Part shown: in pieces, positions 1,382-50,929 of the stretch
Position numbering within the stretch: the stretch's first letter is position 1
How the letters are laid out: the number at the start of each line of letters is the position of its first letter
Assembly (NCBI GenBank): GCA_905178155.1
Contig: CAJINV010000027.1
Span: 272,656 to 336,655 of the forward strand
Source: Amoebophrya sp. A120
Lineage: Eukaryota; Protista; Dinoflagellata
DNA length: 64,000 nt
Direction: 5' to 3'
The notes under the pieces: model-generated
Database searches by the model: none
What the model saw: the letters and a program-made list of their open reading frames with translations, nothing else
What the model was told of the DNA's origin: nothing
Program-made: the position numbers and the translations under genes

Positions 1382-1596
1382 TGATGCGGACTCCCACGAA
1401 AGCCATTTTCCATTCGTTTTTTGGAATTTGTAATGCTAGAATCAGCATACTGTGCGAGATCTGTGATGCTTCTGAACTAGCTAAACAGGATTACACTACG
1501 CGGACAAATTTGTCATGCCAAACAACCAAAGCTGGCTGATTTGTCTAGCAGATTTCCCATCTTGACTCTGGTGTGGGGACGTTTTTACTCAGAATA
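1382..1596. mobile_element. Introner family B, right portion only
   Basis: Ends gtggggacgtttttactcagaata like the 27388-27666 copy; no left TIR in the window. Confidence 0.7.
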
Positions 1597-1669
1597 GCCC
1601 ACAGCAAAGTATGTGTGTGGCTGCGCCGCAGAGCGCCGCACCTACAATCAATGCAAGATGAAGCGGCGT

Positions 1670-1988
1670 TATCAAAAGGAAAAATCCCCCCTCCCCATAT
1701 CAAAACGAAGTTTCTGATGCAGGATTTGCGTACACAAATCAGATTTGTCTTGCTGGAGAGGAATACAGGCCCATACTCAGCCCAAGTAGAGAGATTTTGT
1801 ACTAGGCGTCTAGAATGAGGAACGTCCATGCTGTAGGCCCATTAGCATCACAAATCACCTGCACAATGCTGCGGAGCTTGTGGAGTTGCCCTCTTTCAAG
1901 ACCGACGTGATTTGTGGTCTCAAATCAGCAATACAAATTTGGAAAAATACCTTTTTGATATGGGGAGAAGGGATTTTTCCTCTTAATA
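1670..1988. mobile_element. Introner family C
   Basis: TIR tatcaaaaggaaaaatcccc / gggatttttcctcttaata; TSD ggcgt/agcgt. Confidence 0.85.
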
Positions 1989-2353
1989 AGCGTCGTCGCG
2001 TCACATGTCGTCGCGGGCGGCGGCCCGGTGCTACGCAAGCCGACTAAGGGGTCCGGTAGGCTGGGCGCCAGTTCTCGTATCAATATGAAGAAGTGGCTCA
2101 CCCCTAGAAATTGCAAGAGGTTTCCATGATGCACTAATTTCTCATGCTTAGAAAACTAATGAAACATATCACAGTCTGCGTATGCAAAAGCTATATCATG
2201 CAGAGGTGTGCCAGATGGAATCAAATTTTCTCGTGTAAGTAAAAATACTTGCAATGCCGGAAACGCATCTTTCTTCTAGGGTAGAGGCACTTTTTCACGT
2301 GGAAAGTATCCCGCGTAACAGTACCGTTCGCGTTGTTGTTGCCTCGTCCACCC

Positions 2354-2695
2354 TATCAAATGCAAATATGTCTGGGTCTGGAAATCTGTGATGTTGAATT
2401 GAGCGTGATTAAACTTGAAGCGCTTGCAGTGGCAGCCAGGCATTACAAGTTTTGGAGACGCCTGCTGATGCCTACTTACCACACATCGCAAACTGCGTTT
2501 TTGCATGACAAAACAAGCTGCTTGCGGCCGAAGCTGCTTGCGGCGACGGTGCAAAGGTTTTTTATGTGGTGCAGTCGGGTATGCATGACAAAACAAGCTC
2601 CTCTTTTGCTGCTCATGCAACACAGCTTTTCCAGGAATGCAAAACACGCATCACAAGTTCCACTTTTCCAGACCCAGACATTTTTGCATTTGATA
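2354..2695. mobile_element. Introner family A
   Basis: 30-bp TIR tatcaaatgcaaatatgtctgggtctggaa; perfect TSD caccc. Confidence 0.93.
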
Positions 2696-2719
2696 CACCC
2701 GGAGTACCAATCGTGGAAA

Positions 2720-5700
2720 ATGCGGGGCATCGGGAGCAGCATGACGAGTATGCTGCGCTATCCAAGAAAAAAACGTTTTTAGTGTAAAGTTGTGATGCGC
2801 AGCATGCAAGATGATTGCGTCTCTCATGCTTGGCATGCCTCGTAGGGTCCATTAAAGGGCGTTTTCACGTACTATCTGCGCATGCCAGGTTTTTACTATC
2901 ATGCCAGACAAATTTGTAATGCTGTTCCTCCAAAAAAGTTACACCTACAATGCTTTTTTCTTGGATATGCGCTGGCGCAACTCCAGCGCGACGCCCCTGC
3001 AGGCCCAACTGAAGGAGGCGCTAAACAACAATAACTGGGGCTGTAGCATATTGTGAGGAAAATGAATCCGCGAGAACCGTATTCGATTTGGCATTTGTGT
3101 TGCTGGATTTTTAATACCTGTCCTCCGTCCGCTGAATCAGCATGAGAGAAAAAATCTTAATCTGAATATGGAAACGAGGTGGATTTTTCCTTGTGATATG
3201 GCAACACGATTCTCTACGACATCGCCAACCAAAGCAACTATTATCCAGCGTAAAAAAACTGTATCCTAAAACTACCTGAGTTGTCATGCATATAATGCAG
3301 CAGGAGTCTTTCTATGCGGCTTTTCCGCCCAGAGATACAACTCTCGTCCAAGTGTGCTGCAGACGATTTTGTTATGCAACATGCTCTCGTCACAAGAAGC
3401 AAAAGATGGGGCTGTACTAGGGAATAAGCAGTGCGTGTGCGCTGTGTATCCAAAGTTGCCCTTTGTGAGTCCAAAAACCTCTGCACAATCAGTCCAGCAC
3501 ATCAAGCCGCATCTTGAATCGGGGTTGTTCTTGGAAAAATTTTTACGTAGGGGTCCGGCGAAAATCCTCCTCTGCACGATATGCGGGCGTTCCTTGGCCA
3601 AAAGACTGCCGGGCATCGTTTGCATTTCCAGCTGGAAAATGCTGAGGGACCCGGAAGGAGGGTTTGCAAATGTCCTCCTCCGCACCGTATGGGGGCTTTC
3701 CTGGGCCCAAAAACTGGGCGACGTTTGGATTTGAGGGGGGAAATGCTTAGCGACTCGGAAGGGGGGTTGCAAAAATGCTCCCCGGCAAGGTATGCGGCCC
3801 CTTTTTGGCCCAAAAAGTGGCCGGCCTTTCGTCTCCAGCTGCAAAGGGTTGGGCACTCGGAAGGGGAGGTTGCGAAAATCGTCCCCCGCACGTTCTGCGG
3901 GCTTCAGGCGGTTTGTACTGCTTTCCGAAACCTTTTGTGTCAAGGTCGAGTGCCCGATCATGAGGCCCGCCCGATGTTATGGTCAGCAATAACCGGCTGT
4001 CCATATTGGCCTGCAAGGCGAAACGCTCACCGGGTGAGCGTTTCGCCTAAGAAGTCCATATTGGGATCTTTCCCACCACAGCACACCGTCGTGCTTCTGG
4101 CTGTTTGTGCTGCCTTTTGAAACCTTTTTTTGCCAAGTTCGAGCGCCCTTTCGTGAGGCCCGCCCGACGCTATGATCGACACAAGCCGATTATCCATATG
4201 GACCCTCAAGGCGAAACGCTCACTCGGTGAGCGTTTCGCCTAAGAAGTCTATATTGGGATCTTTCCCACTACAGCATACCGTCGTGCTTCTGGCTTGTTG
4301 TTGCTGCTTTTTGAAACCTATTCTGCCACTTTCGAGCGCCCTTTCTTGGGGCCCGCCCGACGCTATGGTCGACACAGGCCGACTATCTATATGGGCCTCC
4401 AAGGCGAAACGCTCACCGGGTGAGCGTTTCGCCTAAGAAGTCTATATTCGGATCGTTCCCACTGCAGCATGCCGTCGTGCTTCTGGATATTTGTGCTGCT
4501 TTTTGAAACCTATTCTGCCAAGTTCGAGTGCCCTTTCGTGAGGCCCGCCCGACGCTATGGTCGACACAGGCCGATTATCTATATGGGCCTCCAAGGCGAA
4601 ACGCTCACCGGGTGAGCGTTTCGCCTAAGAAGTCTATATTGGGATCTTTCCCACTGCAGCATACCGTCGTGCTTCTGGGTATTTGTGCTGCTTTTTGAAA
4701 CTTTTTTTTGCCAAGTTCGAGTGCTCTTTCTTGAGGCCCGCCCGATGCTAAGGGCGACACAGGCCGATTATTCATATGGGCCTCCAAGCCGCATCTTGAC
4801 TCTGGGTTGTTCTTGGAAACATTTTTACGCAGGATAACCACCAGCTGCAGCCGATCTTGGAGGCTATCAACCAGGTATTTAGGGGAGAGTGCATAGACAA
4901 AATGATGATCCTGTCAAGTGCATTCTATGGGACGAGCTGCAAGACAAATTATTGACTTCATTTTTCTGTAACGCATGGACAGTAGCTCCGAACTTGTGTT
5001 TCTACTGCATAAAGATGTCAAGAGCAAGAAATTTGTATTGCATGAACACGGGTTGTTCCCACCTTCATATTATTCCCACCTCCTCATCATCAAAAACTCG
5101 TTTTCTCAGGCGTTGGCCGAGCGTGACGGACGACGATGGAGGCGTGTGTGGAAGGCGCTGAACTTATCACAGGAAGAAAGTCCTTCTCCTCCGTGGTATA
5201 CTAAATGCAAAACGGAAAAAATCTTTGTCGTGCTGATTTGTCATCTTCAGAAGCCCCACTTTGCGGGCGGCCCACTTGGCATCGGTCATTTAACGTGCCA
5301 TTCTGGGATTCGTAGCCTTCTCCTGTCGTGGAGAGCTGGCAAATAGGTACTAACCCCTTCGTCCCATGGCATCATGACAAAATGATTTGTGTACACAAAT
5401 TTCGCAGCAGAAGTTTCCGTTTGGGTAGTGGGGGGAGGATTTTTCATTTTGACAAAACTTGATCGAAATCATCTTGAAGCACGGCGAAAATCCGATGTTC
5501 GAGGAGAGCATGAAGGCAGACCAGTATCCTGTGTAAAAACGCCCCTACCCCAGAGTTGTCATGCAAAATGGCATCCCTGAAATGTTTCTTATGCACGACG
5601 CCATGTTGAGGAGCATTTTGTAATGCTATCTGGAAGTTTGTCATGCTGAAATGAGGACAAGGTAGCCAATTTGTCGTGCGGTTGCACTAGCTAAACACGT

Positions 5701-8700
5701 TTACACTACGATGCCAAACTTGTCATGCGTGACTGCCAGAATTTCTGGACTTGTGTTGCAAATTTCCCATCTTGACTTTGTCGTGGGGACGTTTCTACGC
5801 AGGATAACCAGTGGCGAGTAATCTACTTTCTCGACTGGCGCTTACGGAAATGAAAATCCCTTCTCTCCTATCAAATGTAAAAATGTCTGGGTCTGGATGA
5901 AGATTGCAACTTGTGATGCTGTCTCTGCATTATACAAAAATGTGTATTGCATGACCAGCAAGAGGGCTCCAGTTTGTGCTACATGGAGAGGGTATTTCTC
6001 ATGCGGGATAGGCATCAGAAAGCCCGCTAAAAATCTGTGATGCCAGGTTACGCATTACAGGCGTCATGTGTCATGTAAAATCTGCATGACATCCAGACCC
6101 AGACATTTTTACATTTGATATCTCCAAATTCAAAACACGAAGGATTTCTCTTGCTGGACTTGTATATAGCAATCAGCTTTGTGGTCGAGCGCCCGGGGAT
6201 ACTCAGCAAACCCGGTCGCCTCGGTCTGTTTAGGTGCATTGGGCAGTGCAGCTGTTGAGCCCCCTTAACCGGCTCGGTGTCTCCTAGTACTTTCCTTCTG
6301 TCATGCAAGAGAAATAAGCTACTTGTTTTATACGCATTTTTTACAAACCAACACATCTAAACAAATTTCCACTCAGAACAATATGGGGGGGGAGATTTTT
6401 TTTTCCTGCCACAGCGCTACCAGGAGAACCAGAAGGACGTCACTGCGGGGATCCGTGACAAGGCCAAAAAGATTATCCCTGTGTAAAAATGTTGTGGCCC
6501 TAGATTTGTCATGCATATTTCCACGCCGCTGCCCAGGACGCTTCTCATGCTCAGCTGCATGAGAAGCGTTGTGTTCTCGTGGTGTTGTGGAAAAATTTGT
6601 CATGCCTTATACAGGACGAATTGGTGAATTTGTGATGCGACTAGCATAGCCATTCTTGTTACTCAGGATAAAGATCCAGCAGTTGTTGCAGGACCCGGAC
6701 CTGCTGCGAAAGGAGCGGGCGGATGCGCGACAGATCGCGAACAAGCTGCAGCTATGCATTGCAAATATCGATCTGGGTCCGGAATAAAGGTGGAACTTGT
6801 AATGCTGCTCCTACATGCGTGCGAAATCTGTATTGCATGACCAACAAATTATGTCGTAGCCTGTTTCATCTAATCCGGACTGCGTACGAGAACGCGTTCT
6901 GGAAACTTGTCATGCTTGTCTACATTCGGAAGTGTTTTCATCATGCACAGTTCAGCATCACAAATCTCCAGACCCACAAATATTTGCAGTTGATAGCAGC
7001 CGCCCTCGATGTCAGGCGGCGGTGGCGGCGGGATGCCGCAAAGCGGCTTGGCTGCAGGCCCCGGGCCATATCGCAAGAAAAAACTGTTTCACTGTGAACT
7101 TGTGATGCATACAATGGAACACAGAAGTATTTGTCTTGCCACACATGCAAGAAAGTGGATTTTTAGCTGTGTTTTCCCTTAGGAAGCTTGCGTGGCAAAT
7201 TTTTTCTGTCACGTAGAACGAACTTGTCATGCAAAACCTGCAAAATCATCACAGTGAAACAGTTTTTTCGTACGATAGGCCAGGCTACGGAAATAATGCA
7301 GGTTCGAGCTACAACGACGGCTATGGCAACAGTGCGTCGGTGTCGTACGGCTACGGCCCGACGACCACGGGAAGTGGCCTCTACGGCACCACGCAAGAAC
7401 CGATGTCAGGAGGGAGACCAGTGGACCGACCAGACTACAGCTTTCGGGCTTACGACCGCGATTTTTTGGGCGCCGGCCGTCCGGAAACCACGACGTTTCA
7501 GTCTTCCTACGCCGCCTCTGGTGCGCCGCCGTCGCTCCAGGTACCACCACCTAGTTCGGCGTCCCGAGCATTGCGACGCGACGTTCCGGAACCAAATCCA
7601 GCAGAGCCGAGTACTTCTAGCGCGGGTAATTGTCTATGTCTACAAAACATATGCAAAAATTCAGCGGTGTGCGTTTTTGTCATGTGTGTCTTGTGTCAGG
7701 TGTATGTAGTTTGATAAATGTACTAGTCTTTGTCACTACGTCGCTGAAAGAGAGTAAAAATGACACGCATGATTGATAAAAATTTTCAGATTCGCGAAGA
7801 CGGGTTGTCCAGGTTTGCGGGTGTACAGAAACGGAAGCGGATTATCATGTGAGAAATATCATAGTTGCTGGCTTGCATTTTGATGTTGTGCATGCAATTT
7901 TGAATTACAAGTCTTCGCCTTCGCGAGGAAAAGATTTTAATTTCTCATGCAGTTCTACTCCGTCACCAATTTGTTTCTTCAATCTATAGGAAAGAACAAA
8001 CCTTTTGTGCTTGCTATTTTTTGTGCAGCATTTTACAAGCGTCTTTGATGACAAAATGTACTGTCGCACGCTGGCTTCTTTCTCCGCTATCCCAGCCGAT
8101 TGCTGCGCGCGGCAGACGGAAACGTGGAGGACGCGTGCAACAAATTTTTTGCCCAGGCCAACAACGAGCCCGAGCTCGAGGCGCCACGAAGTGCCCAGGA
8201 CCAGCGGGATTCGGGGCCAGCCTCTTCCGACGAAGACGAGGAATTGGACGAGATGCCGAGCGGTAACGACTCGTCAGAGCCGGACCATAGTCCGGAGGTC
8301 GGTCCGCGTCATTACGCACAGCGAAAATGTCTGGGTCTGCGAAAAATGGAGTTTGTCATGCTATGTTTCGATCACGCAAAATGTTGTATTGCATGAGCAG
8401 GGGCAAAAAATCTGTGAAACTAGAGCATACTAGCTTGACGAAAATCGCGGGTCATCATGTAAAATCTGCATGACAAACTCCTCCAATTTTCCAGACGCAG
8501 ACATATTTGCACTGCATTGTGGTCTCCAACCCCAGATGTCAGGACAAGTAATGCCACCGCAGCATACCAATGCTTCGCAACCAGCGACGTGGGACCAGCA
8601 ACAGCGGGCACAGCAAGCGGCCAATATGCATTGCAAATACAGCTAGGTCTGGAAATAGACTGCGGATTTGTGTCATGTAGCTCTTGGACCACAAAAATGG

Positions 8701-11700
8701 AAAAAGCAACACGGGTCTTGCAACGACTTCTCCAAGCCTTTTTGCGTAGCAACAAGTAGGCAGCTTTTGGCGGTCTTGCAACACAGATTTTTGTGTGCGC
8801 GTCCCGAGCAAGCATCGCAAATTCGCTTCTTGCCTGACCCAGAGATGTTTGCAATGAATAGGCAGCGTCCGGCAGCAGCCGCAGGTACCGATGGAGCAGC
8901 GGCATATGAAATGCAAATATGTCTGGGTCTGGGAGTTTCTAAACTTGTGATGCTGTGTCTGGATTCCAAGAAAATTTGTATTGCATGACCAGCAAGAGGA
9001 CTCCAGTTTGTGCTACGCGGACGAGAGGACATTTCTCATGCGGTGCTGGCATCACAAAGCCCTCGCAAAATCTGTGATGCTAGAGGATCCATCACAGACA
9101 TCACGGGTCATTCAAAATATGCATGACAAACCTGGCAATCTTCGAGACCCAGACATGTTTGCATTTGATACGGCAGCAGCCAGCGCAACAGGGGGCGAGC
9201 CGCCAGTTTTCCCAGCCGTCAGGGTCGCAGCAGTACGGTACCGCGCTGGATGCACAAACTGGTATCAAATGTAAAAATGTCTGGTTCTGGAAGGATGCAA
9301 CTTGTAATGCTATTTTTGGATTCTAAAAAAATCTGTGTTGCATGACAGGCAATAGGAGTCCAGTCTTTGCCACGTGGAGAGGGCATTTCTCATGCAGGAT
9401 ATGCATCAAGACGCACTCAGAAAATCTGTGATGCTAGGGCATAGATCACAGCCGTCATGGGTCATGTCAGACGTGCATGACAAACAAGGTCATGGCGCGG
9501 GGACAGAGTCCCCGCGGCTGCGACCTTGCGGCTAAGAAGGGCCACCCGCGGTGGCTTTTCTTGCCCATTATGCGGCAGGTTTTTTTTTTGCGACAACACG
9601 GGGTGGCTTGGCGCTCGTGGTGCCGGCGCCCCCCTGGAACAGTGCGCCTTTTTCTGCGCCCCTGGGCGGGGCGCCCCCCCCCAAAGGACTACCCACGACC
9701 AACCGAGGGCGCGGCCGTCCGGGAGGTTGTTCTCCCGAACCAGGGCGCGCGGGCCTGTTTCTGCGCCCCTGGGCGGGGCGCCCCCCCCAAAGGACTACCC
9801 AAGACCAACCGAGGGCGCGGCCAGCCATACCAGGGCGCGTGGACCTGTTTCTGCGCCCCTGGGCGGGGCGCCCCCCCCCCAAAGGACTACCCACGACCAA
9901 CCGAGGGCGCGGCCGTCCTGGAGGCTGTTCTCCCGAACCAGGGCGCGCGGGCCTGTTTCTGCGCCCCTGGGCGGGGCGCCCCCCCCAAAGGACTACCCAA
10001 GACCAACCGAGGGCGCGGCCTTACCAGGGCTCGTGGACCTGTTTCTGCGCCCCTGGGCGGGGCGCCCCCCCCAAAGGACTACCCACGACCAACCGAGGGC
10101 GCGGCCCTCCTGGAGCCTGTTCTCCCGAACCAGGGTGGGCGCGCGGACCTGTTTCTGCGCCCCTGGGCGGGGCGCCCCCCCCAAAGGACTACCCACGACC
10201 AACCGAGGGCGCGGCCTTCCTGGAGCCTGTTCTCCCGAACCAGGGTGGGCGCGCGGACCTGTTTCTGCGCCCCTGGGCGGGGCGCCCCCCCCAAAGGACT
10301 ACCCACCCACGACCATGCGAGGGGGGGCGCGGCCACCTTCCTGGAGCCTGTTTTCCCGAACCAGGGCGCACAGAACTGTTTCTGCGCCCCTGGGCGGGGC
10401 GCCCCCCCAACAGGACTACCCACGACCAAGTGAGGGGGGGCGCGGCCTTCCTGGGGGCTGTTAGTTCGCTTCGCACTCCCGAATCAGGCCGCGCGGACCT
10501 GTTTCTGCGCCCCTGGGCGGGGTGCCCCCCCCAATGAATAGGCAGCCAACCTTTGGCCGCCGGGGTCGGGCCTGACTCTTGAAAAGTGGCCCCCGGGGCC
10601 GGGTGTTCCTTTTCCGAAGTCAGGCGGGGGGCATATTTTGGGTTGTGCAGGAGGTTTTTCTTTTTGCCGGTTCGGGTCGTGTTTGATACCCCGGAACAGG
10701 GGTCGGAACATACTCCGCAACACACCCCAGAACACACCCCGAAACACACCTCAGACCATGCCCCGAAAGCCACTCTCCGAAAGTCAGGTCCGGGGTCGGA
10801 CCCGACTCCCTAAAAGTGACCTCCGGGGCCGGGTGTCACTTTTCCGGAGTCAGGTGTGGGGTATGTTTTGGGGGGTGCAGGACGTTTCTGCCGATTCAGG
10901 TCGTGATTGATACCCCGGAACATGGGTCGGAACATACCCCCGAACACCCCCCGAAAACTCATTTTTGGGCAGTTGCTGCAGTTCAAATAGTAATCTTCCA
11001 ATCTTCCAGACCCACACGCTTTTACACTTGATAACTGGTACGTATAGCGGATTCTCGCAGTCGCAGCAGCAAGCTCAGAGTCGTGCACCCTACAGCCAGT
11101 ACGGGCAGAATTTGGGTACTACCAATCCGCTGGCACAGAATCTCTCCATCGGCGGCTCGCAGGTTATCAAAATGAAAAGCGCAGCCCCGTCTCCGGACTC
11201 GTTTCAAATGTTTGCGCTGCAAAGTTTTCAAGTGGGCGGGCTTTGTCGTGTATGCTCGGAATAAAATTCCAGTTGCTACAATATGCAAGGCTTCCGGAAT
11301 ATTATCATTTAGGAAAATTTGCAATGCAAATGTGTCCACGTGCTTCGGTCGCGAGGGCAGTTTTTATTCTGATACAGGTGCAGCAAAATCAGCTGCCATA
11401 CAACTCGACGCAATCGGCCACACTACACCCCTCTGGTATGCAAGTACCCATGGGCCAATCGGGTCCGCAACAAGGCACTGGTATCGACTGCAAATATGTC
11501 TCGGTCTGGGTAAGAGCACGCGAACTTGTCATGCTGGGTATATAGCATGACAAAGCAATGTTTTATAGAGCATGAACGCATCACAAATCTTTCGGCTGTT
11601 GTTGCAAGGTGAGTCGTGTTTTGCATGACAAACTCCCTCTTCGAGCATGACAGAAAAAATGGTCACTCCTATTCAGGCATCACAAATCTTCTTATGCTTC

Positions 11701-13711
11701 AATTTTCGCATAACATATCCAGACCCAGACATATTTGCAATGCAGGACTGGATTCGCACGACAATCGCCACCGACGTTGGTGCAGCACCAGACCTTTATG
11801 CATTACAAAAATGTCGAGCTAGTACAACTTGCATGAAAATATCTTTGGAAAGAAAATTGCAATCTGTGATGCAAATTTCGCTCGGGAAAGCAGATCTGTC
11901 ATGCATAGCTGCAATTTATACGGAGGCTCCGATACTCTTGTACGGCATAACCTTGCCACAGCAACCAAACGTCGGCTCGCAAGTTTTCGGCGGACAAAAC
12001 GTCCCAACACCGCAGCAGCAGTTCCTGATGCAGCTCCCGGCGGGTTCGCAACTGGCCCACCAGCATGTTCCGCAAACGTCCGCAAATTACCTTGGGCACG
12101 ACCCAACTGCCAGGCAGCAGCAGGTGCTGTTAAACTCGACACCGGCCGCCCAAAGTTCTGTGCAACAGAAAATGTCGGGGGGAACTACAGTGCTGATACC
12201 CAGTAGCGCGCAACAATTTGCTCCTATCGCAGGTAGCGGGCCGCAAGTTCCTCTGCAAGCCATCATGCAGACCACGCCACCGCTCCAGCAAGCACAGACG
12301 ATGGAGTCGCAGGCGATGCCGACGCAGCCGATGCAGCTGCGCGTACTACCCCAGACAGTGCCATCCATGGAATCGGTATCGACACGAAACGTGGTGCTGC
12401 AACGGCAGGTGCTAGTACCCGCACAGCCGCAACAGCAAACGCTGTTGCAGCAGCAGCCGGGCGACGCGACAACGATGGCGCAGCCGGCAGTGCGGGTCGG
12501 GCAGCACCTACAACCCGCGATGCCAACATTGCAGTACAGACCCGTCCTTTTACCGCAGCAGCTTGTGGCCTCCCAAATAATGCAACCACAAGCGTTGCAG
12601 CAGCGAGCCATCCTAGCCCCGCAGCAGATGGTACCATATTCTTCAGAAAAGTACACCCAACATGATACCAGGGAAAAAAAATGAGCCTAGTCATGCTTCC
12701 TTCTGTGTCACAAAAATATTCTGTAGCATGTTCATGACAAACCTAGTGGGCATCTTTTTCATGCTGGAGCACATCACATCATTCATCACGCATGACAGGA
12801 GCTTACCGCAGTTGTAGATCAGCAGCACAAATTTTTTCGTGCGAGAAAAAAAACAGCAACACAAATTGATTTTTCCCGGTTGTAGTGTGGGTGTAGTTTT
12901 CTGAAGGATGTACCTGTACGACCACAAATGGTCATGGCGCCGCAGCAAGTAGCGATCCAAAACCCGCAGCGGCAATCGTTTGTCCCGCCTGCAGGTCTAC
13001 CAATGAACTCGCAGCTGCAAAGCAGACCACCCATGGCACAGTACGGACAGGCAGCAGGAGGTGTACAAGCGAACCTCGGCGTTGCTGCAAGCCCGAGAGG
13101 AGTACTTCGCCCAGCCGCGGGAGAGGGAAACCAGATCAGCACGCCTCGGGAACCGGGCGGCCGGGGGGTATTTGAGTCGTTGCAATGTCTGCTTGTGATG
13201 CATATGATACTTTACTCACCGCATGAATGTCCTGTCCCGTTCCTGTATGTGCTTTCGTGCATGACAAAGAACTTCCAAATTTGCATACCATGCATGCTTC
13301 CGAATCATGCATTACAAAGTTAAAGTTATTGATTTTACAAATCAGCATTACAACTACATTCCAGGCAGCGACCAACCCCTTCGCTAAGTACGACGTGCGG
13401 CGTTTTTTGAATGGTATCCCGGGTAAAAGTGTCGCCAGCCCGTATCTGTCATGCAAATTTGCATGCCGAAAATGCAGTTCCTCATGCGCAGCTACATGAG
13501 CTGCAACTTCTAATTGTGTTTTGGAATTTGTCATGCCAGAATAAGCAGGAGAAGATCGGTTTGTGATGCGACTGAGCTAGCTAAATACGATTACGCTGCG
13601 AGCCCCACCTTGTCATGCGCAACAGCCAAAACTTGTTCATTTGTGTAGCAAATTCCCAATCCTGACTACGGGGTGGAGACGCTTTTACACAGGATGAACG
13701 GCACCCCATAG
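2720..13711 (+). CDS. Epsin-like protein (N-terminal ENTH domain, UBA-like segment, Q/P-rich tail with NPF), about 20 introns
   Basis: Joining exons after removing element+TSD gives MRGIGSSMTSMLRWRNSSATPLQAQLKEALNNNNWGCSNTILYDIANQSNYQLQPILEAINQALAERDGRRWRRVWKALNLIEIILKHGENPMFEESMKADQWRVIYFLDWRYQENQKDVTAGIRDKAKKIQQLLQDPDLLRKERADARQ, matching the ENTH consensus (WG.S, W+HV.KAL.L, +R+KA+.+..LL.D...LR.ER). Later exons include RLLRAADGNVEDACNKFF (UBA-like) and TNPF; stop TAG at 13709-13711. Junction at ~7843-8100 unresolved. Confidence 0.88.
2759..2967. mobile_element. Introner (tatccaagaaaaaa TIR)
   Basis: Right TIR ttttttcttggata; perfect TSD tgcgc; restores MLR|WRN. Confidence 0.9.
3049..3198. 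mobile_element. Short introner
   Basis: tattgtgaggaaaa / ttttccttgtgata; TSD tagca/tggca; restores ENTH WGCS|NTIL. Confidence 0.8.
3242..4836. mobile_element. Introner family B carrying a 1.2-kb satellite
   Basis: tatccagcgtaaaaa / tttttacgcaggata; TSD actat/accac. Confidence 0.8.
3551..4790. repeat. Composite tandem repeat (~110-bp units, then about four ~192-bp units)
   Basis: aaggcgaaacgctcac(c/t)cggtgagcgtttcgcc hairpin recurs at ~4015, 4208, 4401 and 4593. Confidence 0.9.
5165..5454. mobile_element. Introner (C-like, degenerate)
   Basis: TSD gaact/aaact; restores KALN|LIEIIL. Confidence 0.75.
5525..5806. mobile_element. Introner family B
   Basis: tatcctgtgtaaaaacgcccc / ggggacgtttctacgcaggata; perfect TSD accag. 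Confidence 0.92.
5843..6413. mobile_element. Introner (C-like) hosting a nested introner
   Basis: Perfect TSD gcgct; restores DWR|YQENQ. Confidence 0.8.
5869..6120. mobile_element. Nested introner family A
   Basis: Perfect 29-bp TIR tatcaaatgtaaaaatgtctgggtctgga; perfect TSD tctcc. Confidence 0.93.
6474..6670. mobile_element. Introner (B-like, shortened)
   Basis: tatcc / ggata ends; perfect TSD aagat. Confidence 0.85.
6753..6995. mobile_element. Introner family A
   Basis: Degenerate A-type TIR; perfect TSD gcagc. Confidence 0.88.
7069..7277. mobile_element. Introner (tatcgcaagaaaaaactgtttcactgtga TIR)
   Basis: Right TIR tcacagtgaaacagttttttcgtacgata; perfect TSD ggcca. Confidence 0.9.
8625..8860. 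mobile_element. Introner family A
   Basis: Degenerate TIR; TSD gccaa/ggcag. Confidence 0.8.
8905..9170. mobile_element. Introner family A
   Basis: A-type TIR; perfect TSD cggca. Confidence 0.92.
9263..11033. mobile_element. Introner family A carrying a 1.5-kb GC-rich insert
   Basis: A-type TIRs; perfect TSD actgg; restores AQTG|TYSG. Confidence 0.9.
9648..10535. repeat. GC-rich tandem repeat (variable unit up to ~120 bp)
   Basis: cctgtttctgcgcccctgggcggggcgcccccccaaaggactaccc repeated about 9 times. Confidence 0.92.
11165..11374. mobile_element. Introner with TSD caggt (GT-AG compatible)
   Basis: tatcaaaatgaaaa / ttttattctgata; perfect TSD caggt. Confidence 0.88.
11482..11746. mobile_element. 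Introner family A
   Basis: A-type TIRs; perfect TSD actgg. Confidence 0.87.
11797..11949. mobile_element. Short degenerate introner
   Basis: tatgc / gcata ends; perfect TSD acctt. Confidence 0.8.
12637..12910. mobile_element. Introner (tattcttcagaaaagtacaccc TIR)
   Basis: Right TIR gggtgtagttttctgaaggatg; TSD tacca/tacct. Confidence 0.85.
13415..13696. mobile_element. Introner family B
   Basis: B-type TIRs; TSD aatgg/aacgg; lies before the last 3 codons of the epsin-like gene. Confidence 0.85.
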
Positions 13712-14403
13712 TCAAGGAGGTGCACAGGACCGTGTTTTTTTCAAGTACATCACAGCAGCTTTGCGGAAAGCCAAGTTCTTTCCCGTTTGGCCTGCGAGTG
13801 CATCAGGGACTCGTTGTTTTCACCAGTCTTTACCGTTTCGAAAAATTTAGACAGGAATCTTCGAAAAAAATCAAGCAATATAATTCCAATGTTATGACAA
13901 TGAAGGAGGTACAACTTGGGCAAAAAAATTATCATCTGCAAAAAGATACAGTAGTTGCTCTATGCTACACATGTGGTTACAACATGGCAGGGGATTTTGA
14001 TGTCAGAAGCAGGTAGTTTATTTGCTGTACAATTCGTGACCCGAAAGAAGTCACGTCTGTCCTGCTAGCGTTTTCGTGCCTTTACAAATTCGGCTTCATC
14101 TCAAGAACGACCAGCGGAAATAAAAATCCAGCGGGAGAACGCGCGCCCTGAATCATGTCTCCCGCGAGGACACATATTTTTCTAGATTTCAAAAGGTACG
14201 GCAGATATCTTGTGCTTACCATGTTCTTCTTGCTTTCCCCTCGGAATGCTGGTATCCGACGTTGAAAAAAAGCTTTCTCTTCCTTCAAAACGTTCCTTTT
14301 TCGCGTTACCACCTTGTTTTTGTGGGCAATAGTGTAAATCGTTTTGGTTTTTATGATCAGAAAACCACTGTACAAGATGGCTCCCTTTTCGCACGGCCTG
14401 CGC

Positions 14404-23646: not shown

Positions 23647-26043
23647 CGGTGTAAGAGTCTCTACGGGGGAAAGTAGTGATTCTGGATTTATTGATCCGGA
23701 GTTCTGTTGAATATTCTTTGACATCTATTTTTTTTGCTACAGTACACATTATAACAAGGATTGAGCGACTCCATCAATCAGGAGTAAAGGGAAAAAAAGT
23801 TCAGATAATCTTACTGTTACTCATCTCAGCGTGCACAAGTATTTACAAAAAAAAGTTGCAGATTTTATAGGCCCGGCAAACGATAAAAGCGAAAGTGGGC
23901 ATGTATTTTTTAATCGCTGTGCCGGCCAAAGTGCCACACGGTAAGTATTTCAATGCGATCTAACTAATGATTTCCTTGCCGTTTTTCAGAACAAATAAGT
24001 TTGACGAAGAATTTTGTTGCAATAATTTGATTTTTCCCTACCAAAGACGACCAAACATTGAACTTTCGACGCCGTAGAAAATATAATTCCGTCGTACGGA
24101 TTCGGATACATACGGAAACGAAGTGTCTATCCTATTCAAGAGATGAGTCCGCGCCACCTCCTAACCTACTGAAGAGGAACAACATGGTAACAACATAAAT
24201 GTTGTTTGTCATGCTGTGATGAGCTGCTGATAAATTTGAGACAGTTGTTGCTTTCGCTAGCATGGCAGACTTCCAGTGTACAAAATCCTACCGGGGTTTT
24301 CGATAGAGGAACGTGCTGCAAGTCAGCAACCACGATGCGCCGGCGTTCTGATGCGAGCCCCGATAGCTTCTGCCGGAGCTCCTTCGGGATTTTTGTCGCG
24401 GGCTGGGGGGCTGCAACAAAGCTACCCTTTGTCTCATGTAGTAGTCATCTAGTCGAGCAAAATTGTAACGCCTTTTTATCTAAAATGGCAAAGCAACCGC
24501 TGGTCAGGAGACCTTTAAAAACCAATTTTTACAACTAGAAACCAGCAAAAAGGATAGCGAAAAGAAAGAAGCATAGGCGGAAATTCGTCTACAGCACGGC
24601 TCGACGACGCTCTGCATTTAGTTATAATCCGACCTGGCGAAATACACTTTTCACAAAACTTCATTCTTTAATTTTTTCCTTGTGTTGGAAGCATTTTCTC
24701 AGCATAAAGTAGAACGCGTAGCCGGCGCTTCGCAACAGCGATTGACCCGTTGGTGAAATATAGTGCTCTCCGACGGGTTTGCGCTTTAATTACCTGAGCG
24801 ATTTTGCTCGTGTAGATTTACAGGTATAAAATATAGGACGATTGACTGATCGGGAAAAAATAAGCATTAAGACGCGAAAGTCGCGCATAACCAAAAGCTG
24901 CACCCTGCCTCCACCTTTTTGTGCTCTGACCCAGTTTACATCTGCCTAATTTTTAACATGATGCTCTGCCCACCCGTGTAGCTGACCACCTTTTTTTTTT
25001 GAAGCTGCTTATTTCTAGCTGAAACCAAGCGGCTCACTTACTTCTGATAAACGAATAAACGATTCTTTATGATCCTGGTTTTTTTCTTTCTTTAGCACAA
25101 CAGACTTGGGCTGAAGATGTCCACCTGCTAGAAATTGCTAGTGAAGCTGCAACCTTTTAGTTTTACTATTGGTAAATGCGTCGCCTGGTATCTTTAACGA
25201 GTGAAGAACAGGAACGATAGAGCTTTTCGGCTCACAGGACAACTGGCGCTCCGGCCAAACATCGCGATGCAACGAGCTCCATAGCAGGGCAATAGGCCCG
25301 ATCTTGGGGCGAGCGAGAAGTAGTTTTCTGAAATTTTCCATACGATTTAAAGCGAAACGAGACCTGTCCACGCCAATTCCAAGCAAGCATCTGAAGCTGC
25401 TCGTAGCTTATTCAAACACCCAAGAAAACGTGTAAGTGTATCGGACAGAGCTATAAAAATCGACGACTTTTTTTTTTAAGCATGGGTTGCACGTTCAAAT
25501 TTCGCAATGTACCCTAGCCGATTGTAAATTTCGCCGCGCCGGCCACTTTTAGACGCACCCTTGTACAACAATGTAGACGAGTGAATGAACTGCATCGACC
25601 CGTTTGTGTCACTCCACAAGCTGTTGCACAGGACACCTTTATCTCGTACTACAAACATGCTGGCGATACGAATGTACTGCAAAAATGCACACCTGTATAT
25701 ACTTGCTAAGCAGCGGTGCCTCTTGGCAAGAAGCCGCTATTACAGTCAGCACTCTGGCGCTTTACTGAGAAGCTTTTTGATGAAAAACAAGAATTCGTGT
25801 TCCCCAATGTACGCATTTGTGTCATCACCGTGGGCATGGCAAGGGTGATACATTTTGAAGTATCTACACTACATGAACCATCCGCCAGATGTTCCGTGGT
25901 TTCCATGCTTCCAACGCGTTCACACTGCAACGAGCGAAGCACCCTAGTGCGGCTGGAATCACATTTGAATTTCCACATTGACTCTGACATTTTATCCTGA
26001 CAAAACCATGCTCCTGTCATTCCGGTTGCCCGTTACGCACACT

Positions 26044-32639: not shown

Positions 32640-32785
32640 GATTTGAAAAGCGCTGCGTACTTGACATCGTCAGGCATGCAGTCTCGCTGTAGTTCACCCT
32701 CGTTTATTATTTACTCAAACAAGATCTTTTTGCCAGACATAGTTCTTGACAAGATGAAAAAGTCCTGCAGTCAAGTAGGAAGCAG

Positions 32786-35475: not shown

Positions 35476-37910
35476 ATGCTAGTGCAACCTCTCAGCAACC
35501 TCGAGCCACGGGAACGAGTTGCGAATAATAACGAACCATTTTTCAATTGCCGTGCTGAGGTGTTGCGAACCGGAGCACAGCTCGAATCGGCTTCGCTGTG
35601 GGTATGCTGTTCTGCTCTGAGTAGTTTCGTGTGTGCTCCTTCGCAAATGATTTTCTCGTTTCGGACTTTCAACTCTTTCTCCTCTTGCGTTTCTACTTCC
35701 TGTTAATCGTTTTAGTTGTGGTGAGAAAAAAAGATCCCAGTTAATACGTAGTCACCAGTGCGTTCCGACCCTGTCGTTGGGTCTACCCGCACAAGTTTCG
35801 TCTAAACGCGGTCTTTTTCTCGAGCCCCGCTCGTGTGTTTCGTTATGCAAGTGCTACATGCTGCAACCGGGTCTGACTTCTCCACCTGCCTGCACGTCGT
35901 GGAAACTCCGGCGGGTGGTGCGTATATCGCGTATGGCACGGCGTTTGGGAAGATTGCGCTACAACAACTTTCCCGCGGAAAGCAGCTTGCCGAAGGAGGC
36001 AGTGGCGAGCGACCCGTTGAAGAGCTGGAGACGGGCAGGGCGGAACAACATGAACTCCAGAATTACCTGGGGTTCCCTGCAGTTCACGTCTGGATCGACA
36101 GTACGGCACCTGCTGCACCACGTACTGGTAGTAATGAGGATCCAGAAGCCGTAGCGCCTGGCCTCCGCGTGTGTGCGGTGTTTCAGTACGTCGGGAGCCA
36201 CCATCTCATTCGGGCATGGGAGCTTTATCCAGGGCGAGTTGCCGGGACCTCCAGTACCGGGGAGAAGCTGCAGCAGGTACGGACTGCTGTTCAATTTGTA
36301 CTGCACGCAGCCGATATGCGAGCAATCTCTTTTACGAATGATGGGGCGCTGCTACTCCTGAACAACAAATATGTTGGTGCTGAAATCAGAATATGAATAT
36401 AACAGGTTCCACCTCCTGTGCCAAAGCTCTCCGTTCGACCATCAGTAGAAGCTTGGGTCGTGTCCAGCAGCTCGACCTTTCACGTTCGCGAAAGCCGACC
36501 GCTCCCGAACGAAATTTATCCTGTTGAAAATATTTTCGATATTTGAATTGTCATTAGGAAATTAGAACAGAAAATATGAACTACCCAGAATTCTCTGCCG
36601 TGGAGATCGGCTCTGGGATTGAAAATATTTCAACAACATAAACGGTTGTACAACCTGTGGTCGCAGCTACCCGAGAATACGACGATTCGAGGAGCCGAGG
36701 AAGAAGCGTTTTTCTGTGCCACGAACGGTCACTTGCTGCTCTACGGGAAGCAGCAGACGCGGGTGATTCGGCTACGAGAACTCTGCACCTTCCTCTTGCC
36801 CCCGACATCGTCGGCCGGAGGCGAAGGTGAAGGCCGCGACACGAATAGTACAGTAGAAGTGGTCTCGCATATTACAATGAATAATGTCCCCTCCGCATTT
36901 CAACACCGGAAATCTGTGCTGCAGATTTGTGGTCACAAATCCGCTTTGTCATGGTAGAAGGCAAAAGATGCGGACTGTAGTGCTGGCTAGCGTGGGAAAG
37001 CCTTGCATCTTCAGCACGACACGAGGCAACTGGAAGTGGGAAACAGCATGACAAATTACCTGCAATGCAGGCCGCAGCTGCGTCTCTTGGCATTCTAGCA
37101 ATAGAAATCGGCTTGTGTACTCAAATACAGCAACACAAATTTCGTTTCCGATATGGGGAGGGGGCATTTTTCCCTTTGATATCGCAGCTTGGCTACACGA
37201 TTCCGGATTTCTACCCCCTGATCCGCAACGCGAACGAAAACTTCAGTGCCTGGCCCCTGCAATTTCACGACGGCGCCGTACTTTTTGTGGAAAAGCGCGG
37301 TGAGGATGACGAGCGAACGGAAATTGCAGTTGGCCCACCGGACGTCAGAATCCACGTGCTGCCGCTGCACGAGAACGAGTCATGCCCGGCCGGACCAGGA
37401 GAAGTCCATCACGAGTACCGTGTGCGCAAGCGCGTTACGGCGATGGCGCTTGTCGGATCTGGAAGTGCAGATCATGACCAGCCACAGCGGGTTGTCGTTG
37501 TCTCCGATTACCGCGAGGTGCAGGTATTCGACCAGGCTGCGAGCCGAAGCGCAGAGCAGCCAGCTATCGCTCCGCCAGTAATCCGACTGCCCGACGACTT
37601 TGTCGCCATGGACACGCAAGGCAGCATGCGAGGGCAACACAACGGTCAGGAAATGGTATACCTCCTCACCCGCGGGTGCCGCGTGTTCGAGCTCGATATC
37701 AACTCTGCGGCCACTGGATACACGGACTCCAGCAACAACACCATGTCCGAGTTTTCTTTCGTCCTGCATCAGGATAGCATCGCTGATACTTCGGGCACAC
37801 ATTTGAAAAGATTGACATTCGATCTGCCATCGCAACTTTTTTGCACTAAGGAGCTAGCAGTGATCAAGACTGATCAGGGACTCATAGCACTACAGAAAAT
37901 AACACACTAG
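35476..37910 (+). CDS. Hypothetical protein, possible beta-propeller (WD40-like), intron-containing
   Basis: Exons 35833-36396, 36619-36869 and 37187-37910 are in frame across the tcgca-TSD introner; beta-strand-rich motifs (IAYGTAFGKI, MRAISFTNDGALLL, VTAMALV). Confidence 0.45.
36870..37181. mobile_element. Introner family C
   Basis: Right TIR ggggagggggcatttttccctttgata; perfect TSD tcgca. Confidence 0.85.
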
Positions 37911-38247
37911 CGAAGAAGATCTTTAAAGCCCTCAATAAGTGTGTCCCGTAATGATAAACACACAACGCAGATTGCTTTTCCTTTTCGCGCCGTCCTGGAT
38001 TTCCAATTTGATCTTATGTTCAGGTTTTCTCCTGTTACAGCAACATCTTACTTCCTCCACTTTATGACCAGCGACCTTCTGTGAACGTACTACACACAAA
38101 CTATTTCGGCATACAGACACTATTCATCCCAAACCATGATTTAGACCGCAGTTATAGCATTCGTAGTTTTTCTTGAAGCCCGCATCTGTCTCTTAGTGAA
38201 GTTTCTCTTTCTTTGACAGCATAACTAGCACACATCCCGTCTTGAAA

Positions 38248-40992
38248 ATGTCAGCGACCGCGAACACTTTTCCAACCAGGCATAAGAAAAAGCCTGGCGC
38301 GGCTACGGTGAAGCCCGGTACGCTCGCATTTGCGGGTAGTGCCTCCAGCGAGCACTATGAATACGACCTGCACAGCGGCATTGTCATTCAGAGGAGTTTG
38401 AAAAACATGTATCCTAAGTGAAAATGGCCCCCCCGCGTAGTCAAGATGACAGCTTTGCTACACAAGCCAAGGACTTTTCGCTGTTGTGCATGGCAACTTT
38501 GAGCTTCTTCTAGTGCAGGGGCATGTCAAATCAATCTTCTAATGATCTCGATTCGAGAAAAACAAGATCCCAGATAGCGATAGCAAATGTTGCATCAGAA
38601 ACATTTGTAGAAATGCACGTTTGCATAAATATCAAAGCTGGGGTAGGAACGTTTTTGCACAGGACTACATGGCGGCCATTCTTATCGAACCGGAGGGAGG
38701 AAAGCAGCGAATTTTCATGTTCGACTCCGTGGAGCTTCTTGACAAATTCGTCGCCGCATGTACTGCATGTCAAGCTGGCAATAAGAATGCCGAGCAGAAA
38801 CCGGAGATGCAAGAACCGGCACCGGGTCGTACACCGAGTGGTGCGGCGAGCAATAGCGAACCAGAACAACCGGGGGAAGACGCGAAGGCGTCATCGAGAA
38901 TAACGACAGCAGATCAGAAACTACCCCAGCAAGAAGCACCGCTACAAGAAGAGGACGCGTGGTCCAAGCGGATCGCGGCTTTTCTCGAGGGCGATGAGGA
39001 CAACGAGTACCTGCAGAAAATTCTAGATGCGCACGGGGCGCTTTTCGAACAGTATGTCCTCGAGGAGCGATCACACACACCCGCCCAGTTCCTCCGGCAC
39101 GTACTGTCTACCATGACAAGCGACGCTAGCATAAACCAACAGTTCGCCCTGCCGCAGGCGCGACCGCAACCAAGCGCATTCGTAGCGTCCGCAGGACCTG
39201 AGCGCGACTTCTCCCGCTACCTGAACGCCTTCGCAACGGAGGATGGTACAGTTGGCCTCGACAGCGATATTCGCCAAGCACTGCTCGAAGAGAATCCGCC
39301 ACTGCAGAAACTGCACCGACTGTACGTAAACGACCGGTACAGCGATGACGATTTTTGGAACGAGTTTTGCATATCAACGTGAAAATTGCTCCGACCCTCA
39401 GAACAAGTTGATGGCACAGTGGTGATTGTCGATCCAAAGTTGTCATGCCTAGGTGGACTCAAGGATTTGTCAGGGGCATACAGCGCTGTGTCAATGAATC
39501 CACGGTGGAGACAATTTTTCTCGTAATACCCAACGCAATCAAACTACTTCCTCCTGTTGCAGGGAAAGAACGATGTGCGTCGCCGACACAACCCGAAATT
39601 CGATCCCTACATTCCACAGGAGCTGAAGTTTGACCAGGAGAGTAATCCGTCTGGCTTCGCCCACCTCAACGTCGCGGGGACTTCGTCGTCTGGTGCACGT
39701 AACGCCGCGAATGTATTACCTACTCAGCACGAACTGACCCTCGACGCCAGCTCCGCGCCGTCGCGAAGAAAAATGCAACAGCTGCTCGGCGAAATGGACG
39801 ATCCAAATGCGGCGGGTGTGGTGCAAAAATTGGACGATGATAGCAACCAGAAGTGGCGCCTGACGCAGTGGAATAACAACGACCAAAAGATGCTCGCATA
39901 TGGCACAGAAAGTTTTCTTCATCTCAGTGAATGACCATGAGCCCAAATTCCACGAACATTTTGCAACCCATTATGTATCTGTCTTGCACGACAATGCACT
40001 GAATTCATTTTTTCAAGTACCGGCCGGGCACCAAGTAACACGGCCATGCACGATCTCGCAGTGACCCCTCGTCGTGACTCTCTCGAAAAGTCCAGTTTGC
40101 ACGCGTGATGGTAAAAATCTGCTTGCGTGCCCTCTGTCTTCTCGGCCAAGGACTCGGGAACCTGGTTTGATGAAAACGGTTTCCATAGGATTTCCTGGGC
40201 GCCGAACTCGGAAAAGCACACACATCAAGGACGCGGATTTTGCATCGCGTAAACCAGCTATCAGCAAGGGCGCTGCCGCATCTGCTGCCGAGCCCGGCAT
40301 CTGGCAAGGAACCTAGCGTGCGATCCAGTAGCGATGACGAGAACGAGATGGAAGAAATGGTAGAACTATCGCGAAAAAAACGGCGCCTCGCAGATCCGTC
40401 GGGCTACGCGACCGAAACTGGTGTAGCACGATCGGACGGCACAAACAACAACCCAAGCGACGCCAGTTTGAGCACCGACCCCAGGAAGCCGGCACCGAAG
40501 TCCTTTGACGGAAACACGCTGAGTCCGATTGAGCACGAGGTGCTCAAAACTATAGCAAATCGCAGGTACCAGCTTCCTCAGGACAAGTGGCCCAGCAGTG
40601 TCAGCATGCGCAGCATTCGCTTTCCGGACCACCCGCAGGTGCAGAACGCGTCGAAGCACCTCTTGACCAAGAAGGACAAAGACAAAACCGCGGATCAGGG
40701 GCACCAGACGAAAGCTGTGCAGCCGCCCGCCATCCGAATCAGCAAAAACGATTTCAGGCTGCTGGAGCAGCAGCTTCAGTTATTCTACGCACCCATGAGC
40801 ACCTTGAAGCAGAGGCAGCTCATCTTGCGCAAGTTGGATATGGCGATCGACGAGCTGCAGCAAGAACGGCTCGGAGCGAATGAGAGGTACAGGCGCACCA
40901 GTACTAACAACGCCTGTCCGCAGCATTTTTTAAACCAGGTCGAACACGCGAAAAAACACCTCGAGCGCATGCTGAATGCGATTGATCCGTGA
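38248..40992 (+). CDS. TFB1: TFIIH p62 subunit (PH domain plus two BSD domains)
   Basis: PH-like N-terminus (KKKPGAATV...RIFMFDS). BSD-like LDSDIRQALLEENPPLQKLHRLYVNDRYSDDDFWNEFCTQSNYF rebuilt across the 39372-39528 introner; later LTQWNNNDQKML. Confidence 0.65.
38410..38666. mobile_element. Introner family B
   Basis: Degenerate B TIRs; perfect TSD acatg. Confidence 0.85.
39372..39528. mobile_element. Old introner
   Basis: tatcaacgtgaaaattgctcc / ggagacaatttttctcgtaata; TSD decayed, but 5-bp geometry restores EFC|TQSNYF. Confidence 0.7.
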
Positions 40993-46953: not shown

Positions 46954-46964
46954 AATTCCCCCCA
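46954..46964 (-). other. Polypurine tract
   Basis: Minus strand tggggggaatt directly before the 3' LTR. Confidence 0.75.
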
Positions 46965-50925: not shown

Positions 50926-50929
50926 CTAG

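What the first reader, a model, noticed from the sequence alone, without database searches (positions are those of the whole stretch)
1382..39528. Genes fragmented by ~40 frame-restoring TIR/5-bp-TSD transposon introns lacking GT-AG ends
Seen in sequence: several unrelated families of 150-370 bp elements begin TAT, end ATA, have 14-32 bp TIRs and sit between 5-bp direct repeats (caccc, tgcgc, accag, aagat, gcagc, ggcca, cggca, actgg, tgcgg, cttcc, gatga, cccga, tcgca, acatg). Deleting element plus one repeat rebuilds an intact ENTH domain, EF-hands and a BSD domain. Most TSDs cannot supply GT-AG or GC-AG in any register. Established: inverted-repeat non-canonical introners are described in Amoebophrya; to my knowledge their splicing mechanism and transposase are unresolved. 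Inference: removal is guided by the terminal hairpin plus the direct repeat rather than by consensus dinucleotides.
Basis: partly seen in the sequence, partly recalled or inferred. Interest (0 to 1): 0.88.

Follow-up and report, generated by a model that had tools for sequence, protein, structure and literature searches.

The report
Reversible transposon introns cut by ruler
Genes of the marine parasite Amoebophrya are riddled with small transposons, already described, that are removed from the RNA without the usual GT-AG signals; here every testable cut fits one fixed offset from the transposon's ends, which likely means its end sequences serve as splice signals in either orientation.

Summary
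Observation confirmed; the elements are known. Window exons are 100% identical to three proteins named Amoebophrya sp. A120, and the TAT-N7-AAA ends match the A120 introner elements of Farhat 2021. All 14 listed repeats are real. A 5-bp TSD is firm (124 of 152 perfect in related contigs). Contigs from RNA-like runs skip the elements; summed lengths match element+5 exactly (701, 994 nt). Added here: of 46 junctions, only one register fits all (46/46; next best 38/46): cut 1 nt before TAT and 4 nt after ATA. The paper's text calls these borders variable. In that register +2 is U, -7 is nearly always A, and termini are free. Related elements are spliced in both orientations. The direct repeat is dispensable (cuts hold at 0-1/5 match). 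Hairpin evidence is mixed. Best reading (0.5): a relaxed spliceosome reads the TIR as donor and branch signal; no lariat data. The transposase was not found; an integrase-like one is likely. The scan noted similar non-GT-AG transposon introns in other dinoflagellate DNA (untested).

The parts
1597..13711 (+). Epsin-like gene (ENTH, UBA-like; CDS from 2720). Elements, TAT to ATA: 1670-1988, 2078-2308, 2354-2695 (upstream of the annotated start), 2759-2967, 3049-3198, 3242-4836, 4876-5105 (GT-AG), 5165-5454, 5525-5806, 5843-6413, 6474-6670, 6753-6995, 7069-7277, 7627-7785 (GT-AG), 7843-8091, 8313-8518, 8625-8860, 8905-9170, 9263-11033, 11165-11374, 11482-11746, 11797-11949, 12637-12910, 13169-13360 (GT-AG), 13415-13696. 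Each intron = element plus 1 nt on the left and 4 nt on the right.
   Evidence: P0002; RNA-like contigs hold 1863 and 1867 nt upstream of 11950 against 1860 modelled from 1597
1382..1596 (+). Right half of a TATCC-family element; its middle holds a foreign insert ending in ATG repeats, and its left end was not found in the window
5869..6120 (.). Element with perfect tctcc TSD nested inside element 5843-6413: the 5-bp repeat forms inside introns too
   Evidence: skip 576 = both elements plus two repeats
8625..8860 (+). Register-informative element (gccaa/ggcag): excludes a cut directly before TAT
   Evidence: k 2-4
12637..12910 (+). Register-informative element (tacca/tacct): both RNA-like contigs end their piece at 12630 with no other letters, so the fifth base comes from the right copy
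   Evidence: table 8
14353..23646 (+). EF-hand gene. Introns 14628-15330 and 15611-16235 (GT..CG, no clear left TIR); elements 16880-17094, 17396-17653 + 17657-17965 (composite), 18009-18433, 18489-18765, 18947-19269, 19337-19542, 19597-19790, 19848-20167, 20412-20749 + 20757-21019 (composite), 21059-21321, 21803-22471 (holds 21810-22181), 22776-23035
   Evidence: P0001; contig spacing 701 and 994 nt equals the model exactly
18947..19269 (+). Element whose repeat has decayed to 0/5; the only junction that fits the protein is 1 nt before TAT and 4 nt after ATA
   Evidence: predicted stem 0.92
21803..22471 (+). Outer element ending GTA (no A at -7), with nested 21810-22181; skip 674; an intron-retaining contig (22185-22505, depth 5.1) is also seen
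   Evidence: table 8 (k 4-5)
26008..28980 (+). Gene without Pfam match. Elements 26315-26485 and 26552-26682 (both GT-AG in the common register), 26813-27079, 27140-27314, 27388-27666, 27726-27981, 28031-28316; predicted only: 28429-28719 and 28754 to about 28980
   Evidence: P0004
29705..32805 (+). Predicted further elements 29705-29900, 31312-31424, 31661 to about 31810, 32635-32805; ends partly uncertain, no RNA or protein support
35845..37910 (+). Predicted gene: removing elements 36517-36640 and 36870-37181 and a 33-nt GT-AG intron (36373-36405) opens 528 codons
38248..40992 (+). BSD-like gene; elements 38410-38666, 39372-39528, 39899-40192
   Evidence: P0005; homologues align without a gap at the junction column: P0007 at 3 of 3, P0006 at 2 of 3

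Best explanation
These are non-autonomous TIR DNA transposons (Amoebophrya A120 introner elements) with a 5-bp target duplication that are removed from RNA, with every testable cut fitting one offset, 1 nt before TAT and 4 nt after ATA, likely by the host's U2-type spliceosome reading the inverted repeat itself as splice signals. Shown: 5-bp TSD with no target preference; removal of element+5; both orientations spliced; free terminal bases. Inferred: TAT supplies +2 U and +3 A of a donor whose +1 G is no longer required; the mirror ATA supplies a branch adenosine at -7 with a U-tract at -15 to -17; the 3' cut is set by distance, not by AG; the TIR stem may hold the ends together in place of the U1 snRNA reported missing. 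Because 1+4 equals the TSD length, any insertion in either orientation restores the original mRNA, which would explain the invasion. The mobilising enzyme is inferred to be an integrase-like DDE transposase.
For: Register: k=4 fits 46 of 46 junctions, k=5 38, k=3 36. A cut at TAT is excluded by 8625, 18947, 26552 (protein), 12637 (both RNA-like contigs) and 26315 (both); cuts further left are excluded by 7843, 8313, 18947, 28031, 39372, 39899 (protein) and 21803, 22776 (one contig). Motifs in that register: +2 T 46/46, +3 A 43/46, -7 A 42/46, but +1 G 17/46 and -2 A 10/46. Asymmetry: among 36 single non-GT-AG elements +2 T is 36/36 while its stem partner -5 A is 28/36 (p 0.005), and -7 A is 36/36 while its partner is 34/36; same direction in 252 oriented elements from metagenome contigs (1 vs 4 changes; 9 vs 4). 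Independent: all 9 top A120 and all 9 top A25 non-canonical motifs in Farhat Table S4 have T second. Five GT-AG introns fall in the same register, a continuum. Both orientations: 8905 vs 21059, 5525 vs 27388, 33:20 in oriented contigs. No G-U excess in stems. A120 has U2, U4, U5, U6 and 83 of 89 spliceosomal proteins; Fritillaria is a precedent (review).
Against: No lariat, branch or knock-down data. Most register calls rest on annotated proteins from a transcript-based pipeline that may favour GT-AG and that has apparent errors here (last intron of P0002, tail of P0001); only 24 of over 20,000 contig pieces were shown and the RNA joint rows were crowded out. The left end of 6 junctions (4876, 7627, 13169, 14629, 15612, 17394) was placed by me, so they fit by construction, and +2 T is partly ascertained. 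The -7 region fits the YUNAY branch consensus only in some families (-9 is G in 23 of 46). -7 A is not invariant: 4 of 252 oriented elements and 21803 lack it. A stem is predicted in 22 of 38 introns and lost in 5 of 5 GT-AG against 4 of 33 others (p 0.0003; confounded by age), which favours a structural role. A predicted 30-nt ordinary intron has its CTAA box 15 nt from the AG, not 7.
Confidence: 0.5

Rival explanations
1. A structure-guided, spliceosome-independent (or separate) machinery recognises the TIR stem and cuts at fixed overhangs of 1 and 4 nt, as proposed for euglenid nonconventional introns.
For: Terminal stem predicted (mean pair probability 0.5 or more) in 22 of 38; kept in 5 of 9 non-canonical introns with decayed TSD against 0 of 4 GT-AG ones; A-tract at +12..+14 and T-tract at -15..-17 are both kept (35-40 and 40-44 of 46); fixed offsets and orientation independence are expected from a stem; U1 not found in A120.
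Against: No G-U excess over A-C (44:38; 141:160, p 0.88); the base of the stem is conserved asymmetrically; 4 of 33 non-canonical introns have no predicted terminal stem yet are removed (one of them, 16880, may pair in a shifted register); no bulge-helix-bulge or IRE1-type loop is evident by inspection.
Confidence: 0.33
2. The direct repeat guides joining (repeat-mediated recombination of RNA), or the junctions are reverse-transcriptase template-switch artefacts at hairpin bases.
For: 29 of 46 junctions have 4-5 matching repeat bases at the foot of a hairpin; contigs come from cDNA-type data.
Against: Junctions with 0-1 matching bases are cut at the same offsets (18947, 7843, 39372); removal restores Pfam domains and gap-free alignment to 38-40% identical homologues; depth in RNA-like runs is 0 in the intron bin 14688-15296.
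Confidence: 0.07
3. The elements are cut out of DNA, like ciliate IESs, in some nucleus or life stage.
For: TA-type ends, transposon origin, alveolate host; exact restoration of the empty site.
Against: DNA-like run X1 has unbroken contigs with 0 differences across 11034-15638, 16900-19679 and 24970-27413 at depth 23-29, like other unique stretches; an intron-retaining contig is present in an RNA-like run. Contigs drop rare forms, 603 joint rows were hidden, one sample only.
Confidence: 0.04
4. The genes are insertion-riddled pseudogenes.
For: About 50 insertions in 40 kb; several genes lack Pfam hits.
Against: Spliced contigs of 2.7-3.3 kb in two RNA-like runs (one sample), exact length match, intact frames and domains.
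Confidence: 0.01

Closest known systems
Introner elements / non-canonical introns of Amoebophrya sp. A120 (Farhat et al. 2021, PMC7789003)
   Same: Same organism by 100% protein identity; IR motif TAT + 7 nt + AAA; direct repeats at the borders (5 bp in Fig. S19 legend); mostly non-GT-AG; about 240 nt; many families.
   Different: Nothing in kind. The text calls splice sites variable relative to the hairpin, DRs 3-5 nt, and finds no dinucleotide signature; here one register, a strict 5-bp TSD, +2 U, -7 A and orientation independence are found. Figures 3 and S19-S25 could not be seen and may show part of this.
A120 introner family 38, 'Ginger', TA/TA termini, 5-bp TSD (Gozashti et al. 2025, PMC12130899, Dataset S2)
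   Same: Same termini and TSD length; points to an integrase-like transposase.
   Different: Family 38 is about 808 bp with LTR-like ORF homology; window elements are 131-425 bp without ORFs; no sequence comparison was possible.
IS3EU/GingerRoot and Ginger2/TDD DNA transposons (PMC10045372, PMC2836005)
   Same: TA..TA termini (IS3EU/GingerRoot); 5-bp TSD (TDD-4, TDD-5).
   Different: IS3EU/GingerRoot make 6-bp TSDs; Ginger termini are TGT; no transposase linked here.
Euglenid nonconventional introns (review PMC11282704)
   Same: TIR stem, TSD-like repeats, non-canonical ends at fixed offsets from the stem.
   Different: Other offsets and motif (CAG/CTG at +4..+6 / -8..-6); reported to leave as circles; no such data for A120.
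Fritillaria borealis transposon-derived non-canonical introns (review PMC11282704; bioRxiv 10.1101/2025.08.15.670264)
   Same: MITE-derived introns handled by an adapted U2 spliceosome.
   Different: Fixed AG-AC/AG-AT ends and TAC target preference; here termini and target are free.

Membership tests
Amoebophrya A120 introner elements | IR motif TAT + 7 variable nt + 3 or more A | tested here: met
   End matrix, (TAT 44/48/48 of 48 ends; A 45/45/43 at positions 11-13); paper text
Amoebophrya A120 introner elements | 3-5 nt direct repeat at the exon/intron border | tested here: met
   5 bp: 124 of 152 perfect; 1 or fewer at n=4, 6-9; 12 at n=2; 16 of 46 perfect in the window
Amoebophrya A120 introner elements | Removed from transcripts with non-GT-AG ends | tested here: met
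   RNA-like contigs and length match; 39 of 46 without GT/GC-AG in any register. RNA status of the runs is the tool's guess, supported by their behaviour
Amoebophrya A120 introner elements | Repeated families; host is A120 | tested here: met
   Families of 8, 7, 3 and 2 in the window; named proteins 100% identical
Non-autonomous TIR DNA transposon (MITE) | Short, TIR, fixed TSD, no coding capacity, high copy | tested here: met
Non-autonomous TIR DNA transposon (MITE) | Autonomous partner with the same TIR | tested here: inconclusive
   6 TIR pairs of 481-1185 bp in the loci, longest stop-free frame 198 codons, not annotated; an integrase ORF at 63281-64000 runs off the window and is not linked
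IS3EU/GingerRoot | TA..TA termini | tested here: met
IS3EU/GingerRoot | 6-bp TSD | tested here: not met
   0 of 152 at n=6
Ginger1/Ginger2 | TGT termini | tested here: not met
   TAT is the rule; TGT/ACA only as rare variants
U2-type spliceosomal intron | GT donor and AG acceptor | tested here: not met
   5 of 46 in the common register; +2 T kept in 46 of 46
U2-type spliceosomal intron | Lariat through a branch adenosine; U2/U6 dependence | not testable with these tools
   -7 A in 42 of 46 is only a candidate
Euglenid-type nonconventional intron | Selected RNA stem joining the ends | tested here: inconclusive
   Stem in 22 of 38; no G-U excess
Euglenid-type nonconventional intron | CAG/CTG at +4..+6 / -8..-6 | tested here: not met
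   position counts; definition
Ciliate-type IES | Excision from DNA | tested here: inconclusive
   Not seen: DNA-like contigs carry the elements unbroken; one sample, rare forms invisible

The most novel reading that the evidence does not exclude
A120 has a spliceosome that needs neither +1 G nor the 3' AG nor U1: it reads a transposon's inverted repeat as a two-way splice cassette (U-A at +2/+3, branch A at -7, 3' cut by ruler), with offsets summing to the TSD length so that any exon insertion is silent. Farhat's text (A25 IR starting TTA, all top motifs TT-) suggests A25 reached the same +2 U/+3 A solution with another transposon.
Probability: 0.4. Interest if true: 0.78.

Novelty: already known. 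Interest (0 to 1): 0.45.

Why it matters
The elements are published, but how they are spliced is an open question. A single register turns 'variable borders without signature' into a testable rule: it predicts the branch nucleotide, the lariat RT-PCR product and minigene outcomes, and lets A120 genes be annotated from DNA. If right, it shows how a transposon becomes harmless at any exon site and in either orientation, and how far spliceosome end recognition can relax.

Tried and rejected
No whole genome was held. Read-level junction tables for RNA alone were not obtained; the DNA-like run crowded out the RNA joint rows, so RNA evidence is from contig piece coordinates only. G-U versus A-C test: no signal. 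A first orientation method (longest ORF) was unvalidated and used a matrix biased to intact TAT/ATA; replaced by a codon model that called 15 of 16 window elements correctly, trained partly on the same genes. No clear drift of decayed TSDs toward G at +1 or AG at the end by inspection. No autonomous element found in 153 loci. The protein atlas gave no answer for the integrase ORF. Bulge-helix-bulge and IRE1-type geometry rejected by inspection only. The insert at 1-1386 has no Pfam hit. snRNA alignments in the Farhat supplement are figures and could not be read, so U2/U6 complementarity was not tested. Searches for a published register or branch point found none; subscription papers are not covered.
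Full report
Observation. All 14 named repeats are present. The ends share one matrix, TAT, seven looser bases, then AAA, and the interiors share a TGTNWTGC-type motif (95 hits in 9.2 kb of introns, 1 in 8.5 kb of exons), so the families are related.

Identity. Three exons are 100% identical to proteins named Amoebophrya sp. A120; a fourth matches an unnamed 673-aa protein. Farhat 2021 describes A120 IR motifs as TAT, seven nucleotides, three or more A, with 3-5 nt direct repeats. The window therefore shows the published introner elements.

Transposon anatomy. Of 152 distinct elements found without assuming a TSD, 124 have a perfect 5-bp repeat and 145 at most one mismatch; lengths 4 and 6-9 give at most 1, and the target sequence is unbiased. 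Elements nest in each other with their own 5-bp repeat (5869 in 5843). TA..TA termini with 5-bp TSD resemble A120 family 38, filed as Ginger in Gozashti's Dataset S2, but fail the 6-bp TSD of IS3EU/GingerRoot and the TGT termini of Ginger. No autonomous copy was found.

Removal from RNA. Four of 11 listed runs were laid on 11034-29300. X3 and X4 (one sample; RNA by the tool's guess) have depth 0 in the bin 14688-15296, inside an intron, where DNA-like X1 has 26, and their contigs skip elements. Contig spacing between anchors is 701 and 994 nt, exactly the model that removes each element plus 5; 306 nt between 12630 and 13700 fits a 197-nt last intron (the script's 307 counts one shared base). 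X1 contigs cross the elements unbroken, which argues against DNA excision in that sample only. Homologues at 38-40% identity align without gaps at the BSD-gene junctions in 5 of 6 cases.

The register. With a perfect repeat the cut cannot be placed, but decayed repeats fix it. I enumerated all junctions compatible with the annotated proteins and with contig piece ends. Over 46 junctions, keeping 4 bases of the left copy fits 46, keeping 5 fits 38, keeping 3 fits 36. Six left ends were placed by me and fit by construction. The independent exclusions are: against 5, junctions 8625, 12637, 18947, 26315, 26552; against 3 or fewer, 7843, 8313, 18947, 21803, 22776, 28031, 39372, 39899. For 22776 and 26315 the contigs show only the left side. 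The intron is thus N-TAT...ATA-NNNN. Farhat's text calls the sites variable and finds no signature, yet its Table S4 lists nine top A120 motifs and nine top A25 motifs, all with T second. Caveat: most calls rest on a transcript-based annotation with visible errors, and only 24 contig pieces were shown.

Signals. In this register +2 T is 46/46, +3 A 43/46, -7 A 42/46, T at -15..-17 40-44/46, while +1 and -4..-1 are free; 39 of 46 have no GT/GC-AG in any equivalent register and 5 are GT-AG in this very register. The repeat is dispensable: 18947 has 0/5 matches and a unique junction. Related elements are spliced in both orientations, so the signals must lie in the TIR. Conservation at the stem base is asymmetric (+2 T 36/36, partner 28/36), partly by ascertainment; symmetric detection in 252 oriented elements shows the same direction on few events (1 vs 4; 9 vs 4), with four elements lacking -7 A. 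Stem mismatches show no G-U excess (44:38; 141:160). Against that, a terminal stem is predicted in 22 of 38 introns and lost in all 5 GT-AG ones.

Mechanism. Shown: 5-bp TSD, removal of element+5, one compatible register, two-way use. Inferred: a relaxed U2-type spliceosome uses U-A at +2/+3 and a branch A at -7, cutting by distance, perhaps helped by the stem where U1 is missing (0.5). A structure-guided machinery remains a serious rival (0.33). Repeat-guided or artefactual joining, DNA excision and pseudogenes are unlikely.

Literature seen. PMC7789003: abstract, passages, last part of Results, Discussion section 16, supplement parts 1 and 3 and passages; no figures. PMC12130899: passages and rows of supplement files 1, 7, 8, 9; files 13-14 not searched. 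PMC11282704: passages and section 6. PMC2836005, PMC10045372, bioRxiv 10.1101/2025.08.15.670264: passages. Henriet 2019, Roy 2023 and the euglenid circle work are known only through the review. The YUNAY consensus, bulge-helix-bulge and IRE1 geometry, and the Copia-like and Ty3/Gypsy-like labels are recalled. Searches found no statement of a fixed register or branch point; unseen figures may hold part of it.

Verdict. Real, already known as a class; the fixed register and the two-way TIR signal are a modest but useful addition that makes the open splicing question directly testable.

Noticed in passing
window 1-1386; L021:4372-4556: A foreign insert ending in ATG repeats sits inside a TATCC-family element; a 185-nt, 98% identical piece sits at the same site of a related element in L021. 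Looks like the 3' end of a non-LTR retroelement that targets introners, or one insertion carried along. No Pfam hit.
   Followed up: partly
window 63281-64000 (+): Integrase-like ORF (rve E 6e-7, below cut-off) with a Copia-like zinc-finger region, running off the window; candidate relative of the missing transposase or a plain LTR element.
   Followed up: partly
window about 45890-56110 (-): LTR retrotransposon, 1.0-kb LTRs 97% identical, order RT-RNaseH-integrase (Ty3/Gypsy-like), pol split over frames.
   Followed up: partly
window 3242-4836 and 9263-11033: Elements carrying 1.3-1.5 kb inserts of GC-rich tandem repeats (one with palindromes); still removed as element+5 according to P0002 and contig length.
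   Followed up: partly
window 13168-13364; 22776-23646; 28429-28719: Probable errors in the public models: contigs support a 197-nt last intron that adds an NPF motif to the epsin; element+5 at 22776 gives an acidic repeat and hydrophobic tail; P0004 reads through an element.
   Followed up: partly
window 34811-34840 and 36373-36405: Predicted 30- and 33-nt GT-AG introns with in-frame stops, below the 40-nt floor used by Farhat; the first has a CTAA box 15 nt from the end.
   Followed up: partly
window 17394-17970 and 20412-21024: Elements inserted into the border of another element, implying ordered or recursive removal (a 2-nt leftover between 20412 and 20757).
   Followed up: partly
run X9 on window 21057-21093: A 2026 RNA run that does not cover these genes has about 75 reads with a closely related TIR end, suggesting the family in another strain.
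   Followed up: no
window 56100-63100: 141-bp and 106-bp tandem arrays and duplicated AT-rich blocks with long inverted repeats.
   Followed up: no
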